Shown here: positions 26,516 to 62,863 of the stretch, in pieces
Position numbering within the stretch: position 1 is the first letter of the stretch
How the letters are laid out: each line of letters starts with the position of its first letter
Assembly (NCBI GenBank): GCA_964016885.1
Contig: OZ024757.1
Coordinates: 16,926,001 to 16,990,000, forward strand
Direction: 5' to 3'
Length of the DNA: 64,000 nt
Origin: Eledone cirrhosa
Lineage: Eukaryota
Made by a program: the position numbers and the translations under genes
The notes under the pieces: generated by a model
Seen by the model: the letters and a program-made list of their open reading frames with translations, nothing else
The model's database searches: none
What the model was told of the DNA's origin: nothing

Positions 26516-26832
26516 GGATATCCGTCGGGAGCGCGATGAGTGCGCGACATTAACGTGTAAGTGGCTGAACATTTCACATACATGCGCACCCATAATGTAA
26601 TTCTCAGAGAGATTCAGTGTAACACAAACTGCGACAAAGCTAGTTCTTTGAATTACAGATACAATCCATCTTGTATAATCATGTTAGTGGCTGAGTATTC
26701 CACACACACACATCTGTATCATAGACTATGGTTGTCCCTTTGAATTATAGATAGTCACTCATATATTATAGTGTAAGTGGTTGAGTATACCTCAAACCAG
26801 TGTACCCTTAAAGAAAAATTATGACATACAAT

Positions 26833-27175
26833 GAGGCACATGGCTTAGTGGTTAGAGCATTGGCCTTGCAATCAAAAGGTTGTGAGTTCAATTCTCAGAC
26901 CAGGTGATGTGTTGTTTCCTTGAGCAAGACACTTTATTTTTCATTGCTCCAGTTTACTCAGCTGTAGAAATGAGATGATAGGGACTGGCGTCCCTATCAT
27001 TCCACTGCAAAGTGGTCGTGGAGGTGCCACGGCAAAAAAGCACCCAGCACTCACTGTAAATGAGGTTGGTGTTAGGAAGGGCATCCAGCTGTAGAAATCA
27101 AGCCAGAATCAGTTCCCGTCCCACCCTTGCAAGCAGAGAAAAGTGGACGTAAAAAATGAAATGATGATGATGAAT
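26833..27175 (+). mobile_element. SINE family A (~340 bp, tRNA-derived head, CORE-like body, (ATG)n tail)
   Basis: A-box TGGCTTAGTGG, B-box-like GAGTTCAATTC, body CCTTGAGCAAGACACTT, tail GGACGTAAAA(ATG)n; six further near-identical copies in this window. Confidence 0.92.
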
Positions 27176-38096: not shown

Positions 38097-38426
38097 CATC
38101 ATCATCATCATTTTACGTCCGCTTTTCCCTGCTTGCAAGGGTGGGACGGGAACTGATTCTGGCTTGATTTCTACAGCTGGATGCCCTTCCTAACACCAAC
38201 CTCATTTACAGTGAGTGCTGGGTGCTTTTTTGCCGTGGCACCTCCACGACCACTTTGCAGTGGAATGATAAGGACCCCATTCCCTATCATCTCATTTCTA
38301 CAGCTGAGTAAAGTGGAGCAATGTGAAATAAAGTGTCTTGCCCAAGGAAACAACACATTACCTGGTCTGAGAATTGAACTCACAACCTTTCGATTGCAAG
38401 GACAATGCTCTAACCACTAAGCCATG
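38097..38426 (-). mobile_element. SINE family A copy
   Basis: Reverse complement of the 26833 copy, with (CAT)n tail on the left. Confidence 0.92.
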
Positions 38427-44584: not shown

Positions 44585-44927
44585 ATCATTTCATCATTCA
44601 TCATCATTTCATTTTACGTCCGCTTTTCCCTGCTTGCAAGGGTGGGACGGGAACTGATTCTGGCTTGATTTCTACAGCTGGATGCCCTTCCTAACACCAA
44701 CCTCATTTACAGTGAGTGCTATTTTGTTGTGGCACCTCCACGACCACTTTGCAGTGGAATGATATGGACCCCAGTCCCTATCATCTCATTTCTACAGCTG
44801 AGTAAACTGGAGCAATGTGAAATAAAGTGTCTTGCTCAAGGAAACAACACATCACCCGGTCTGACAATTGAAATCACAACCTTTCGATTGCAAAGCCAAT
44901 GCTCTAACCACTAAGCCATGTGCCTCC
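44585..44927 (-). mobile_element. SINE family A copy
   Basis: Reverse complement of the family consensus, with a small internal deletion. Confidence 0.92.
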
Positions 44928-44934
44928 ATTTATT

Positions 44935-45124
44935 CATTATAATTATTTCAATGGTTCCCTTATGCAATCCAAAATGTAATATATGCATTTGTTGTTGGTA
45001 TGGGAACGATATTTTCAAGTGAAAATCCAATTATGTGATATGCTGCAGGCAAAAACAAACATGTCCCTCTTCTTGTGTGCCGTGCCTGACATTGCCTAAG
45101 GGAACCGTTGAAATAATTATAATG
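44935..45124. mobile_element. MITE-like element with 34-bp terminal inverted repeats
   Basis: CATTATAATTATTTCAATGGTTCCCTTATGCAAT (44935-44968) versus ATTGCCTAAGGGAACCGTTGAAATAATTATAATG (45091-45124), 2 mismatches. Confidence 0.75.
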
Positions 45125-47432: not shown

Positions 47433-47674
47433 TGGGCACTTTCTCTGCGTACACAATTTTCCTTGTTGTTTGTTGTTCACGTCTTATGAATATAACAAAA
47501 TGTTAATTCCAGTGTTTCCGGAATGAAATACCAATTAATAAATAATATATAAATGTGGCGGGAGTTTTTATTCTTCTTCTATAACCCTAGCAGTGTGATC
47601 GGGGAAAATCACTTTCCCACAATATAAAACACATTCGCTTTCCACTTATGTACATATTGGTTAAATATCACAAT

Positions 47675-48018
47675 GGAGGCACATGGTTTAGTGGTTAGAG
47701 CATTGGCCTTGCAATCGAAAGGTTGTGAGTTCAATTCTCAGACAGGGTGATGTGTTGTTTCCTTGAGCAAGACACTTTATTTCACATTGCTCCAGTTTAC
47801 TCAGCTGTAGAAATGAGATGATAGGGACTGGGGTCCCTATCATTCCACTGCAAAGTGGTCGTGGAGGTGCCACGGCAAAAAAGCACCCAGCACTCACTGT
47901 AAATGAGGTTGGTGTTAGGAAGGGCATCCAGCTGTAGAAATCAAGCCAGAATCAGTTCCCGTCCCACCCCTGCAAGCAGGGAAAAAGCGGACGTAAAATG
48001 AAATGATGATGATGATGA
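47675..48018 (+). mobile_element. SINE family A copy with target-site duplication
   Basis: Full-length consensus flanked by ATCACAAT on both sides. Confidence 0.93.
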
Positions 48019-48129
48019 TCACAATTATATACAACCAATACGAATCATCATCATTCATGCTTCTACTACGGTAAGAAGTTCAAATCACAATCACTACACA
48101 CAAAAGTCTTCGCTACATGTGTGCCTTAC

Positions 48130-50761: not shown

Positions 50762-51107
50762 TTCATTCATTTCATTTCATTTCATTTTACGTCCGCTTTT
50801 TCCCTGCTTGCAAGGGTGGGACGGGAACTGATTCTGGCTTGATTTCTACAGCTGGATGCCCTTCCTAACACCAACCTCATTTACAGTGAGTGCTGGGTGC
50901 TTTTTTGCCGTGGCGCCTACACGTCCACTTTGCAGTGGAATTATAGGGACCCCAGTCCCTATCATCTCATTTCTACAGCTGAGTAAACTGGAGCAATGTG
51001 AAATAAAGTGTCTTGCTCAAGGAAACAACACATCACCCGGTCTGAGAATTGAACTCACAACCTTTCGATTGCAAGGCCAATGCTCTAACCACTAAGCCAT
51101 GTGCCTC
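50762..51107 (-). mobile_element. SINE family A copy
   Basis: Reverse complement of the family consensus. Confidence 0.92.
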
Positions 51108-52066
51108 ATGTATATATATATATGACATGTATATATATATATGACATGCTTTATAGCTGTGTGCTCTCCCTCACGCCACTAACCCTTTTAGTTACCTCTT
51201 ACAACACACCAAGATATGGTGTATCTATTCTAAAACAAGGTTACACATGGCAATATACATATGTATATCCACACATATATATTTACAAGAAACATATATC
51301 ATCCTCATCATCGTTTTTACGTCCATTTTCCAACGTTTGTATAGGTTACACGGGTCTTTTGCAGCACAGCATCTCTCCACGTTCACATACACATAAAACA
51401 ATTGCTTATGATTTATGAAGAAAAAATTTTGACGTTGGTGCTACCACCACCCTCTCTCTCACTCCTACCATTCACATTCCAGCATGACAGACGTTTTACA
51501 CGAAATATGCAACAGCTTTAATATAGTAATAATACTAGTTTCTTCATTAACCATAAAATGTTCACATGGAGAAAACATTAAGGACAAAACATTGGGTGTG
51601 TGGAGGGGAGTGTAAACAGTAGAGATAACTAAAACAAGAAGAAAGGTAACAATAAAATTATAACAAAGAAAATAATGGTTTCAGATTTAGGAACAAGGCC
51701 AGCAATTTTTGGGGGGAGAGGAAAGTCAATTAAATCGACCCCAGTGTGTTACAGGTACTTTATTTTATTTACTCTGTAAGGATCAAAGGCAAATCTAACC
51801 TCACCGGAATTTGAACTCAGAATATAAAGGGACACAACTCTATGCTGTAAAGCATGGTTTCCGACACTAACAATACTACCAATCCACTAATAAAAAATGT
51901 TTCTGATTTAGGCACCATGCCAACCATTTTTTAGGGGAGGGGAACTTACTGGTACTTTATTTTATCGACTCCGAAAGGATGAAAAGGCCATAACTCTATG
52001 CCGTTAAGCAGGGTGTCCGACGCTCTACCAATTCTGCAAATCAATAATAACAACAATAATTCTTAC

Positions 52067-52656: not shown

Positions 52657-52787
52657 AATTAAACAAATAATTAAACACGTTTACATATGTACCTACACAC
52701 ACACACATACACATATATACATACATACAAAAACAAATACTTAAGCACATACATTTACATAGGTACTTACACATGCCCAAATATGTA

Positions 52788-53706
52788 CGAGGTGTGTCAG
52801 AAAAGTTCCAGGACTGATGTCACAAAAGATTTATTTCAAACCCAAACTTCACACTAAGAGTTTTCTCCTTCAAAGTAATCCCCCTGGAGTATGTAACTGT
52901 AATCTTAGCTCTCTGCAGCGATCAAACTTTTTTCTTCATAATTTTATATACATGTCCTGTTTCAGGTTGTCAAGCAATGAGCACAGAGCAACGAACAAAC
53001 TTGAAGCTTCTGGTATGGTTGGGGAAAACTCCGTCAGAAGCACTGGGATTGCTGCAGCAAGTGTATGGAGATGTGACGATGTCATGCTCACGTGTTTTTG
53101 AGAGGTGCAAGAGGTTTAAAGAAGGACGCGAGGACGTGGTAGATGACCCCAGAAGCGGAAGGCCCTCAACAACCAGGACTGAGGTCAACGTTGAGCACGT
53201 CATGCAGATGGTGCGTAGCGATCGTCGGCTGACTGTTCGACTGATGGTAAGTAAATGAGCTGGGTATGACTCGGGACAGCGTCTGGAAGATTCTCACTGA
53301 AGATTTGGACATGCGGAAAGTCTGCGCGAAGATGGTGCCAAAACTGTTGAACGATGACCAGAAGGGTCTTCGCATGCAAGTGTGCCAGGACATCCTCGAG
53401 CGTCTTGAAACCGAACCAGACTTGCTAGGGACAGTCATCACCGGTGATGAGTCATGGATCTTCGAGTACGACCCGGAGGGGACCCGTTTTGAAGACGTGG
53501 ACGACATCAATAAGGCTGTGACGACGGAACTGCGGAGGATCCCGGAAGATTCCTTCCAGGAGTGAAGGCAAGCATGGCAGAAAAGGATGGAAAAGTGCAT
53601 TAAACTCCAGGGGGATTACTTTGAAGGAGAAAACTCTTAGTGTGAAGTTTGGGTTTGAAATAAATCTTTTGTGACATCAGTCCTGGAACTTTTCTGACAC
53701 ACCTCG
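52788..53706 (+). mobile_element. Internally deleted mariner transposon with 103-bp perfect TIRs and TA target duplication
   Basis: TIRs at 52788-52890 and 53604-53706. Transposase remnant MSTEQRTNLK...DDPRSGRPST...RKVCAKMVPKLL...VITGDESWIFEYDPE joined directly to GTRFEDVDDI...GDYFEGENS*; two in-frame stops. Confidence 0.96.
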
Positions 53707-54163
53707 TATACACAAAAAAACAGTTAAACACATACATACAATAAAACAAATATTCAAACACACACACACACACATACATACATACATACATGCAACCAAA
53801 CAGAAATGACCATAATAATAGTTGAGGAAATTGGGTAAAGTACCTCTGGAAATGGAAAAAAAGATTAAGAGTGGAAGGAGGGATTGAGAAGAGGGGGGAT
53901 TTAAAGGAAAGGAGCAGAGAGATTAATAAAAAGGGGAGGAGAGGATTAATAAAAAGGGGAGGAGGGATTAATAAAAAAAAGGAGAGGAGAGATTAAGAAA
54001 AAAGGGGAGGGAAGTAACAAGAGGAGAGATTAAGAAAAGGGGGAGGGAAGTAATAAGTAGGGAGAGGAGAGTGACGAGGAGGAGAAGAAGAGATTTTTAA
54101 AAAGGGGAGGAAGAGATTAAGAAAAAAAATGGAAGGAGAGATTAAAAGGAATAAGGAACTCAC

Positions 54164-56524: not shown

Positions 56525-56588
56525 ATCAGATGGTACTTGGTTGATGTTATTGAGAGCATCGACATCAGCACCACGCAGAAGACACAGT
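56525..56588 (-). CDS. EHMT1: EHMT exon, ankyrin repeat
   Basis: LCLLRGADVDALNNINQVPSD; ccag| and |gtaagt; 64 nt, phase-consistent. Confidence 0.9.
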
Positions 56589-56658: not shown

Positions 56659-56711
<53 letters not shown>

Positions 56712-56796
56712 AAAAGGTAAACAGAAATAACAACACAATCAGTACAGTATATGGAAGGTATATATTAGGTTAACGCTTGATATCACAGGAAGAGGG

Positions 56797-56832
56797 TCTT
56801 AACGTTTCGGACGCTAGTCCTTCATCAGAAGA
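56797..56832 (-). ncRNA. Minimal type I hammerhead ribozyme motif
   Basis: Minus strand TCTT-CTGATGA-A-GGAC-TAGC-GTCC-GAAA-CG-TT-AAGA: 4-bp stem I, both core boxes, 4-bp stem II, palindromic ACGT in place of stem III. Confidence 0.78.
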
Positions 56833-57116
56833 AAGAATGAGAAATAAAATAGATTGAGGGGACGGGAGGTATGGAATTGGAAAAAATGTCTTTAGATAAA
56901 AATAACAGGTCCATTCATGTTGACATCTCTTGCAAAATATATATATATATATATATCATCTAGAAATTGATTGACATATATATATATATTTAAAATAAAC
57001 ACATGAAACCATCACAGGGGATAATTTGTAAAGTGTGTAAACACACACAGCTAGGTAGGTAACTAATTAAAGTTTAACTAGATCTTCAAATATTACCTTT
57101 TAAGAAATGATTAATC

Positions 57117-57185
57117 CTCCTTGTATATATTTCACTAAAAATCCGTAAAATCACAGCAGTTAAATCTCAGATCATCAGCAAGGAG
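57117..57185 (-). ncRNA. Type I hammerhead motif in the left arm (sense to the EHMT pre-mRNA)
   Basis: Minus strand CTCCTTG-CTGATGA-[38 nt, imperfect stem II]-GAAA-TATA-TA-CAAGGAG; stem I extends to 9 bp. Confidence 0.72.
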
Positions 57186-57338
57186 GAAGAAATAACTGTC
57201 TGTGTTTACGCATCAAATACAAATCTGCAAGAGACCCGTCGCACGTGCTGCAATTCTAAAACTACTAACAACATGCTAGCGTCCTCCCATTGGCGTGAAT
57301 AGGGTAGTCGACAGCTATAAATAGCAGCCAAGTCCTTT

Positions 57339-57407
57339 CTCCTTGCTGATGATCTGAGATTTAACTGCTGTGATTTTACGGATTTTTAGTGAAATATATA
57401 CAAGGAG
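57339..57407 (+). ncRNA. Type I hammerhead motif in the right arm (antisense to EHMT)
   Basis: CTCCTTG (57339-45), CTGATGA (57346-52), GAAA (57391-94), TATA, TA, CAAGGAG (57401-07). Confidence 0.72.
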
Positions 57408-57895
57408 GATTAATCATTTCTTAAAAGGTAATATTTGAAGATCTAGTTAAACTTTAATTAGTTACTTACCTAGCTGTGTGTTTACACACTTTACAAATTA
57501 TCCCCTGTGATGGTTTCATGTGTTTATTTTAAATATATATATATATATCAATCAATTTCTAGATGATATAAAATGCTCGGATCTATTCATTGGAATCTTT
57601 GAGCTTATTCTACAGTGGATATGGCGCATGTCTCGGACATGACTCCTTTGATTTAATTTAATTAAATCTATTTCGGATATATATATATATATATATATTC
57701 ATGGAAATCTGGGACTTGACTCTTTCTTCCTCACTTTTTGTTGCTTTACCATCTTTGTTTGTTTACACTCTCGCTCGTTCCCCTTATTTACGTGTCCCAA
57801 CGACTTTCTTTAGCCGTTGCTCGCACCAACCGGAGGTATATGGTCTTTAAAGCGATGAAATACCAATGATGGTTGGAAGATCACTAACTTTATTC

Positions 57896-58686: not shown

Positions 58687-58725
58687 ACAACACATTCATA
58701 ATTATCTTGTCTAACTGCTATATGT
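58687..58725 (-). CDS. EHMT1: EHMT 39-nt exon, ankyrin repeat
   Basis: HIAVRQDNYECVV; acag| and |gtaagt; completes the GDRPLHIA ankyrin motif begun in the preceding exon. Confidence 0.9.
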
Positions 58726-58821
58726 CTGTAATAAAGAAACAACATTTATTGAGAAAACTATTTAGAATGTAACACAAGTAATTACAAGTAGTTAGTAAAG
58801 ACACTTTAAAAATATTGAACT

Positions 58822-59161
58822 GGAGGCACATGGCTTAGTGGTTAGAGCATTGGCCTTGCAATCGAAAGGTTGTGAGTTCAATTCTCAGACCGGGTGATGT
58901 GTTGTTTCCTTGAGCAAGACACTTTATTTCACATTGCTCCAGTTTACTCAGCTTTAGAAATGAGATGATAGGGACTGGGGTCCATATCATTCCACTGCAA
59001 ATTGGTTGTGGAGGTGTCACGGCAAAAAAGCACCCAGCACTCACTGTAAATGAGATTGGTGTTAGGAAAGGCATCCAGCTGTAGAAATCAAGCCAGAATC
59101 AGTTCCCGTCCCACCCTTGCAAGCAGGGAAAAAGCGGACGTAAAATGAAATTATGAAATGA
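58822..59161 (+). mobile_element. SINE family A copy
   Basis: Full-length consensus with TGAACT on both flanks. Confidence 0.92.
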
Positions 59162-62254: not shown

Positions 62255-62290
<36 letters not shown>

Positions 62291-62618
62291 TTCATTTTAC
62301 GTCCGCTTTTTCCCTGCTTGCAAGAGTGGGACAGGAACTGATTCTGGCTTGATTTCTACAGCTGGATGCCCTTCCTAACACCAACCTCATTTACAGTGAG
62401 TGCTGGGTGCTTTTTTGCCGCGGCACCTCCATGACCACTTTGCAGTGGAATGATAGGGACCCCAGTCCCTATCATCTCATTTCTACAGCTGAGTAAACTG
62501 GAGCAATGTGAAATAAAGTGTCTTGCTCAAGGACACAACACATCACCCGGTCTGAAAATTGAACTCACAACCTTTCGATTGTAAGGCCAATGCTCTAACC
62601 ACTAAGCCATGTGCCTCC
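62255..62618 (-). mobile_element. SINE family A copy with long (CAT)n tail
   Basis: Reverse complement of the family consensus, inserted in a (TA)n tract. Confidence 0.92.
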
Positions 62619-62863
62619 ATATATATATATATATACATACACACACATACATACATACATCTATAAGTGTGTATAACACAGTTTTATGGTGTATGTACAT
62701 ATCATCATTTTCTACGGCTGGATGCCCTTCCTAACACCAACCACATTTACAGTGTGGAACTGGGAGGTTTTTACCGTGTTACCTACACGGCCACATTACA
62801 GCGTGGACTGTGTGTTTTTTTGTCGTGACACCTACACGACCTCATTTGTTTCGGGCTGGATGT

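What the first reader, a model, noticed from the sequence alone, without database searches (positions are those of the whole stretch)
56953..57570. Hammerhead ribozyme motif on each arm of a ~230-bp inverted repeat inside an EHMT intron
Seen: each arm carries CTCCTTG-CTGATGA-(38 nt)-GAAA-TATA-TA-CAAGGAG, i.e. a 7-9 bp stem I, both catalytic boxes and a palindromic TATA tetraloop on a 1-bp stem III. Known: minimal type I hammerheads with palindromic stem III loops occur in Penelope-like pseudo-LTRs and are thought to cleave as dimers. Inference: in the minus-strand EHMT pre-mRNA the antisense arm (57570-57339) is transcribed first and the ribozyme arm (57185-56953) second, so a long hairpin could mask the ribozyme and also serve as an ADAR substrate in a lineage known for heavy A-to-I editing. 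Caveat: stem II is GU-rich and closes on U-U, so activity is uncertain.
Basis: partly seen in the sequence, partly recalled or inferred. Interest (0 to 1): 0.75.

Follow-up and report, generated by a model that had tools for sequence, protein, structure and literature searches.

The report
Damaged hammerhead retroelement copy in intron
This is one back-to-back insertion of an abundant small jumping element whose self-cutting RNA motif has lost a helix in this copy and is likely inactive here, although the element family as a whole keeps the motif intact in three differently wired versions of its catalytic core.

Summary
The inverted repeat, both hammerhead motifs and the intron position are real. 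They are one insertion of a non-coding repeat family (unit 530-556 nt; 1,514 hits to one core motif) with Penelope-type anatomy: head-to-head arms, (TA)n targets and two fixed 3' ends. The 'palindromic tetraloop on a 1-bp stem III' is damage: 533 genomic sites have a 9-bp stem III, 7 have this 18-nt deletion. The family ribozyme is well supported: its 3-8 core pair is U-A, C-G or G-C in 165 of 177 copies, with covarying stems and a co-evolving flank helix. I did not find a natural G3-C8 core in the papers read. In the host pre-mRNA this copy is predicted to be fully paired to its antisense arm, so it is likely inert. No RNA run was available; cleavage and editing are untested. The scan already found this two-armed anatomy and the U3-A8 swap in other families of this genome. 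Verdict: ordinary locus, moderately interesting family.

The parts
56937..56956 (.). (TA)n tract at the left insertion boundary
   Evidence: E1 ends in inverted pairs are mostly followed by ATATAT (34 of 44)
56955..57337 (-). Longer arm, sense to the host pre-mRNA; family coordinates -231 to +171 (cut site = +1); ends at fixed end E1
   Evidence: 98% identical to L007 apart from indels
57115..57187 (-). Type I hammerhead, C3-G8 core, U10.1-U11.1, 18 nt of stem III deleted; predicted cut between 57124 and 57123
   Evidence: P(A15.1-U16.1) 0.001 here against 0.86-0.90 in five long-form copies
57193..57210 (-). Core of the 5' flank that pairs with the ribozyme's long loop 2 (57144-57162); absent from the plus arm
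57190..57334 (-). 145-nt 'spacer': ordinary family sequence upstream of the ribozyme, present once because the other arm is truncated
57335..57339 (.). Head-to-head junction of two 5'-truncated copies, with about 4 nt of overlap
57339..57681 (+). Shorter-5' arm, antisense to the host pre-mRNA; family coordinates about -83 to +285; ends at fixed end E2
57339..57409 (+). Second copy of the hammerhead with the same 18-nt deletion; predicted cut after 57400
57568..57681 (+).
57678..57697 (.). (TA)n tract at the right insertion boundary
58687..58725 (-). Inferred host exon upstream of the intron (ankyrin region of an EHMT-type gene)
   Evidence: AG/GT boundaries and frame continuity; domain order
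56525..56588 (-). Inferred host exon downstream of the intron; its 3' boundary is uncertain

Best explanation
The stretch is one head-to-head insertion of a non-coding repeat family, likely copied from RNA by a Penelope-type reverse transcriptase, and its hammerhead is predicted to be inactive here because both arms lack 18 nt of stem III and the antisense arm would pair with the whole ribozyme. Shown: family membership, the anatomy, the deletion, and covariation of the family ribozyme. Inferred: a Penelope endonuclease nicks both strands of a (TA)n tract; the two DNA ends prime reverse transcription at two start sites 114 nt apart (E1, E2); the two truncated cDNAs join head to head. Inferred for the family: the intact ribozyme cleaves (monomer-type, long stem III), and a helix between its 5' flank and loop 2 mostly holds it off, so uncut longer-than-unit RNA can be copied. 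Inferred for the host: a passenger hairpin of about 236 bp that is spliced out, may be edited by ADAR, and has no shown regulatory role.
For: Family: 533 exact hits to the long stem III motif, 241 to the G3-C8 motif, 1,514 to a core motif; reversed-pattern controls 0, 0 and 2. Anatomy: 59 of 94 distinct loci have adjacent head-to-head arms and none printed tail-to-tail; 30 of 49 in a second sample fetched by other motifs (10 of the 49 overlap the first). Of 59 pairs, 43 had both ends classed: 40 E1+E2, 3 E2+E2, 0 E1+E1 (p about 1e-9); 16 were unclassed. 32 of 94 loci have an arm longer than one unit. This matches PLE structure in PMC8557442 (passages) and the two RT start sites in PMC11167929. 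Ribozyme: 3-8 pair U-A 84, C-G 48, G-C 33, other 12 of 177 (G-C copies fetched on purpose); positions 4, 5, 6, 9 kept in 171, 166, 173, 172 of 177. Two-sided changes in stem I (U-A 44, C-G 24) and stem II (C-G 47, U-A 16) among 77 distinct rows. Damage: short form at 7 sites in 6 loci, in both C-G and U-A subfamilies. The pre-mRNA fold is -444 kcal/mol with the core paired to the antisense arm at P about 1.
Against: No autonomous partner was found: 25 of 150 listed GIY-YIG loci were compared and none shared sequence with the family (best nhmmer E 0.39). The tail is 114 nt against 30-40 nt in described PLEs. Cleavage is untested. Rfam models do not match and RNAalifold returned no consensus fold on A1. 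In one search two of five measures did not beat the shuffles (480 and 497 of 500), and stem III shows no two-sided change. Compensatory changes are a few subfamily-level events, not independent counts. Equilibrium folding ignores co-transcriptional kinetics, proteins and editing. The short form resembles the dimer-active newt/axolotl type, so some activity is not excluded.
Confidence: 0.85

Rival explanations
1. The shortened ribozyme is a working dimer-type hammerhead: loss of the helix left a palindromic loop, and two transcripts pair through it and cut.
For: Core, stem I and a 6-bp stem II are intact. Axolotl HHR_Amex1 has a 1-bp helix III with a palindromic tetraloop and cleaves as a dimer (PMC7229834 passages).
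Against: The palindrome is all A-U, duplex -2.8 kcal/mol. The predicted dimer pairs elsewhere. Only one sense copy exists per pre-mRNA and it is masked. Short forms have not amplified (7 against 533 sites; the patterns differ in length, so the ratio is rough).
Confidence: 0.08
2. The hairpin has been co-opted by the host: the antisense arm masks the ribozyme and ADAR editing unmasks it or tunes EHMT splicing.
For: Geometry fits; 233 of 236 paired; the E1 end lies about 366 nt from the inferred 3' splice site.
Against: The copy is young (98% to paralogues). The layout is the family default. Longer inverted pairs of another repeat lie in the same gene region (I1-I4). No A>G scar: 1 and 2 A>G among 5 and 7 rare differences in the two arms. 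Unmasking would expose a ribozyme without stem III.
Confidence: 0.05
3. The element is a fold-back or MITE-type DNA transposon whose terminal inverted repeats happen to contain a hammerhead-like motif.
For: At this locus it looks like 236-bp terminal repeats around a 145-nt core with TA at both ends.
Against: Arm lengths and spacers differ at every locus, the two ends are different fixed sites, many loci have one arm only, and units occur in partial tandem.
Confidence: 0.02

Closest known systems
Metazoan non-LTR retrozymes (Cervera and de la Pena 2020, PMC7229834: passages and Discussion read; Li et al. 2026, 10.64898/2026.07.22.740005: parts 1-2 of 5 read)
   Same: Non-coding, low GC (33%), type I hammerhead in each unit, longer-than-unit copies, U-U at the base of helix II as in axolotl HHR_Amex2.
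   Different: Mostly truncated copies and inverted pairs; no array beyond about two units in the loci fetched. Stem III of 9-11 bp instead of 1-2 bp. Loop 2 of about 30 nt that pairs with the 5' flank, whereas most metazoan retrozyme circles are said to leave the ribozyme free. Circular RNA not tested.
Penelope-like elements and their pseudo-LTRs (Craig et al. 2021, PMC8557442 passages; Schostak et al. 2008, PMC2377424 abstract and passages; Frangieh et al. 2024, PMC11167929 parts 1-2 of 4)
   Same: Partial tandems, adjacent inverted 5'-truncated copy, tail at one end only, (TA)n targets, two 3' end sites.
   Different: No RT/GIY-YIG ORF; tail 114 nt instead of 30-40 nt; partner not identified.
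Minimal PLE hammerheads (Cervera and de la Pena 2014, PMC4209133 parts 1-2 of 4)
   Same: Opposite-strand pairs 100-700 bp apart and the U3-A8 variant were both reported there; this copy's short stem III looks like them.
   Different: The family has a long helix III (like the fungal and protist PLE ribozymes in that paper), lacks G10.1-C11.1, and includes a G3-C8 subfamily.
Hammerhead core variants and pseudoknotted hammerheads (Perreault et al. 2011, PMC3088659 passages and section 8)
   Same: U3-A8 and U10.1-U11.1 are described; a helix between stems I and II occurs in all three types.
   Different: The text read names no natural G3-C8 (its figures were not seen). The flank helix here is about 30 bp in full and takes in stem II and the GAAA box, so in full it would block, not dock.

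Membership tests
Type I hammerhead ribozyme | Core boxes in order, with A15.1-U16.1 and an NUH cut site | tested here: met
   family GAAA 121 of 127, AUA 120 of 127
Type I hammerhead ribozyme | Watson-Crick pair between core positions 3 and 8 | tested here: met
   165 of 177 copies, three versions
Type I hammerhead ribozyme | Three helices around the core | tested here: inconclusive
   Met in the family; in this copy helix III is one pair, P 0.001
Type I hammerhead ribozyme | Match to an Rfam hammerhead model | tested here: not met
Type I hammerhead ribozyme | Site-specific self-cleavage | not testable with these tools
   needs in vitro assay
Minimal dimer-type PLE hammerhead (PMC4209133) | Absent or 1-2 bp helix III with palindromic loop as a family trait | tested here: not met
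   533 long against 7 short sites; 9 bp in C-G and U-A copies, 11 bp in 21 of 27 G-C copies
Minimal dimer-type PLE hammerhead (PMC4209133) | G10.1-C11.1 pair | tested here: not met
   U-U in 167 of 177
Non-autonomous Penelope-type element | Partial tandem copies and adjacent inverted 5'-truncated copy | tested here: met
Non-autonomous Penelope-type element | Tail at one end only (two 3' end sites) | tested here: met
   40 of 43 classed pairs E1+E2; tail longer than described
Non-autonomous Penelope-type element | Insertion in AT-rich or (TA)n sites | tested here: met
   no genome-wide background computed
Non-autonomous Penelope-type element | Sequence shared with an autonomous RT + GIY-YIG partner | tested here: inconclusive
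   none among 25 GIY-YIG loci of 10,597 candidates
Non-LTR retrozyme | Tandem units each with a type I hammerhead | tested here: inconclusive
   Up to about two units; no long array seen; this locus has no tandem
Non-LTR retrozyme | Expression as linear and circular monomer RNA | not testable with these tools
   no RNA run to lay
MITE / fold-back DNA transposon | Identical termini and constant inverted repeats | tested here: not met

The most novel reading that the evidence does not exclude
The family carries an undescribed type I hammerhead design (U-U-closed short stem II, 9-11 bp stem III, a 30-nt loop 2 that co-evolves with the 5' flank as a switch) that stayed catalytic through three Watson-Crick versions of its core pair, including a natural G3-C8 form in at least 241 copies. 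That would be genomic evidence that self-cleavage is selected during the spread of Penelope-mobilised RNAs, although it was dispensable for insertion in vitro (PMC11167929).
Probability: 0.45. Interest if true: 0.62.

Novelty: new variant of a known kind. Interest (0 to 1): 0.4.

Why it matters
The locus itself is a likely dead passenger and says little about EHMT. The family matters modestly. What PLE hammerheads do is open: cleavage was not needed for insertion in vitro. A family that swapped its core pair at least twice without losing complementarity suggests that catalysis is selected, and it offers natural C-G, U-A and G-C variants in one scaffold for direct assay. The 40-of-43 rule for ends gives numbers to the known one-sided tail. 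The case also warns that a 'minimal palindromic hammerhead' read from one copy can be a deletion product.

Tried and rejected
1. Fixed 5' end of a linear template. In 119 loci all 12 arms that reached -580 stopped by -649 (p about 7e-6). An out-of-sample test broke it: same-strand motif pairs led to arms reaching -768 (L223), -850 (L230), -700 (L258) and two units (L229). Withdrawn; linear versus circular template stays open. The excess at +92 to +121 is probably an artefact of the anchor.
2. RNA evidence: no RNA holder listed. Three contig sets of one sample, of unrecorded kind, were laid; they show repeat depth only and mix paralogues.
3. Editing scars in the family: rare A>G 12.1 against T>C 8.7 per 1000 (p 0.0016), but C>T against G>A is skewed too (p 1e-4) and arms are not independent; no hyper-edited arm among 161. 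Inconclusive.
4. Autonomous partner: none. PLE protein fragments lie near some copies, but no link was shown.
5. RNAalifold on A1 gave no pairs.
6. One search used a pattern one base short and is uninformative. double-counted copies; its counts were replaced. Two of the 8 'short' rows are parsing errors. A few rows are shifted by one base.
7. Trees of flanking sequence group the three core types but are poorly resolved (10 changes, 4 starred branches), so the order of swaps is not given.
8. Scrambled (SGC) hammerhead: not this motif; the boxes are in type I order (PMC10085705 passages).
9. Two papers that bear on G3-C8 (Lunse et al. on PLE variants; Przybilski and Hammann on the core pair) were not held.

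Full report
Observation. The two arms align over 236 columns with 233 identities and one 2-nt gap. Each has a 9-bp stem I, CUGAUGA, 38 nt, GAAA, TATA and UA. Predicted cuts lie after 57400 on the plus strand and between 57124 and 57123 on the minus strand. Minus-strand exons match ankyrin, Pre-SET and SET profiles in that order, so the host is an EHMT-type gene. The element lies in an intron inferred as 58686-56589 from splice dinucleotides and frame. No Rfam hammerhead model matched.

It is one copy of a repeat family. A search of the own genome returned 100 matches from 40 scored candidates of 2,060. Exact motifs occur 533, 441, 984, 241, 315 and 1,514 times, with 0 to 2 control hits. The unit is 530-556 nt in the three copies used as references, 33% GC, and non-coding. 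The 145-nt spacer is simply family sequence upstream of the ribozyme. With the cut site as +1, the minus arm spans -231 to +171 and the plus arm -83 to +285, so the element ends near 57681.

The anatomy is Penelope-like. Among 94 distinct loci (107 fetched, overlaps merged), 59 have adjacent head-to-head arms, 32 have an arm longer than one unit, and arm ends fall at E1 (72), E2 (62), near E1 (9) or elsewhere (25). A second sample fetched by other motifs gave 30 of 49. Of the 59 pairs, 40 end E1+E2, 3 E2+E2, 0 E1+E1, and 16 could not be classed. Seventeen of 94 loci span the ribozyme on both arms, as here. Craig et al. (PMC8557442, passages) describe partial tandems, an adjacent inverted truncated copy, a one-sided tail and (TA)n targets. 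Frangieh et al. (PMC11167929, parts 1-2 of 4) tie the tail to two RT start sites. Cervera and de la Pena (PMC4209133, parts 1-2 of 4) already report opposite-strand hammerhead pairs 100-700 bp apart. GIY-YIG PLE domains are abundant in this genome, but none of 25 loci compared shared sequence with the family.

The short stem III is damage. The family has 18 more bases between two 9-nt direct repeats, forming a 9-bp helix. The long form occurs at 533 sites, the short form at 7 sites in 6 loci, two of them this locus. Short forms occur in different subfamilies. The closing A15.1-U16.1 pair has probability 0.001 here and 0.86-0.90 in five long copies. Both arms share the deletion, so it was probably in the RNA template or its source; conversion between arms is an alternative.

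The family ribozyme is well supported. In 177 distinct long-form copies the 3-8 pair is U-A in 84, C-G in 48, G-C in 33 and mismatched in 12; the G-C copies were fetched on purpose, so these are not genome frequencies. Positions 4, 5, 6 and 9 are kept in 171, 166, 173 and 172 copies, and position 7 varies freely. On 77 distinct rows, stem I and stem II each show a two-sided change; three of five measures beat all 500 shuffles and two did not. The G3-C8 subfamily also changes stem I pair 4 to U-A (26 of 27) and lengthens stem III to 11 bp (21 of 27). These are a few subfamily-level events. U3-A8 and the U-U closure are known (PMC3088659 section 8). I found no natural G3-C8 in searches, in the passages, or in the supplement text search; figures were not seen and two relevant papers were not held. 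G3-C8 is known as a partly active engineered rescue.

A flank helix co-evolves with loop 2. The 45 nt upstream of stem I pair with the long loop 2 and, in full, with stem II and the GAAA box. The hammerhead fold lies a median 6.9 kcal/mol (31 C-G copies) and 8.5 (38 U-A copies) above the best fold. Own flank-loop duplexes are -16 to -21 kcal/mol against -8 to -11 for shuffled loops. Swapping between the deepest subfamily and the C-G or G-C subfamilies gives only -9 to -12. I read this as an off-switch that leaves uncut template; partial pairing as a docking pseudoknot (PMC3088659 passages) is the rival.

At this locus. In the pre-mRNA the antisense arm is made first. The predicted fold is a -444 kcal/mol hairpin with the core paired at probability near 1. 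The loop palindrome gives only -2.8 kcal/mol as a duplex. The copy is young (98% to paralogues) and shows no A>G scar. Longer inverted pairs of another repeat lie in the same region. Editing of the hairpin is plausible but untested. I therefore call the ribozyme likely inert here and the hairpin a passenger.

One result fell. Arms seemed to stop at about -650, suggesting a linear template with a fixed start, but four loci fetched as a test went further. Whether the template is linear or circular is unresolved.

Earlier scan notes. I had the PLE reading. The notes report the same two-armed layout with two fixed ends, and U3-A8 swaps, in other families of this genome; a look-up by sequence found nothing like this family. 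They are unchecked and not counted as support.

Verdict. Observation confirmed, interpretation partly supported. The locus is ordinary; the family ribozyme is a new variant of a known kind. Interest 0.4.

Noticed in passing
window 56704-56930, motif 56797-56832 (-): A different, very high-copy repeat right beside the element carries a true minimal hammerhead (4-bp stem I, 4-bp stem II, palindromic stem III), also sense to the pre-mRNA and not masked by an antisense arm.
   Followed up: partly
window 57700-57895 (+): Piece of another high-copy repeat that resembles elements in L012 and L245 where GAAA precedes the CUGAUGA box; the box is decayed here. Possibly the scrambled-order motif of earlier notes.
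   Followed up: no
window 1 to about 12000: Tandem satellite of a 146-nt unit with 144- and 63-nt variants, about 90 copies.
   Followed up: no
window 26799-27154, 38111-38426, 44612-44960, 47662-48028, 50777-51109, 58807-59156, 62265-62633: Copies of a 330-370 nt repeat in both orientations, 94-98% complementary, with a weak tRNA match at 58831-58888; one copy lies in the intron just upstream.
   Followed up: no
window 52786-53708: 105-nt perfect inverted repeats around reading frames that look like a deleted mariner-type transposase (resemblance recalled).
   Followed up: no
window 57289-57324 (+): A CCAAT-like and a TATA-like motif 30 nt apart, kept in the family core and pointing antisense to the family ribozyme.
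   Followed up: no
L235: A copy with G3 and A8 (mismatch) and G-C-subfamily stem features; a possible intermediate or recombinant.
   Followed up: no
L026: One arm has the stem III deletion and the other does not, though both share a private change; the deletion can arise in one arm only.
   Followed up: partly
L018:588-659 (-): Unrelated hammerhead matching Rfam HH9 (37.7 bits, below its gathering score) next to a family copy.
   Followed up: no
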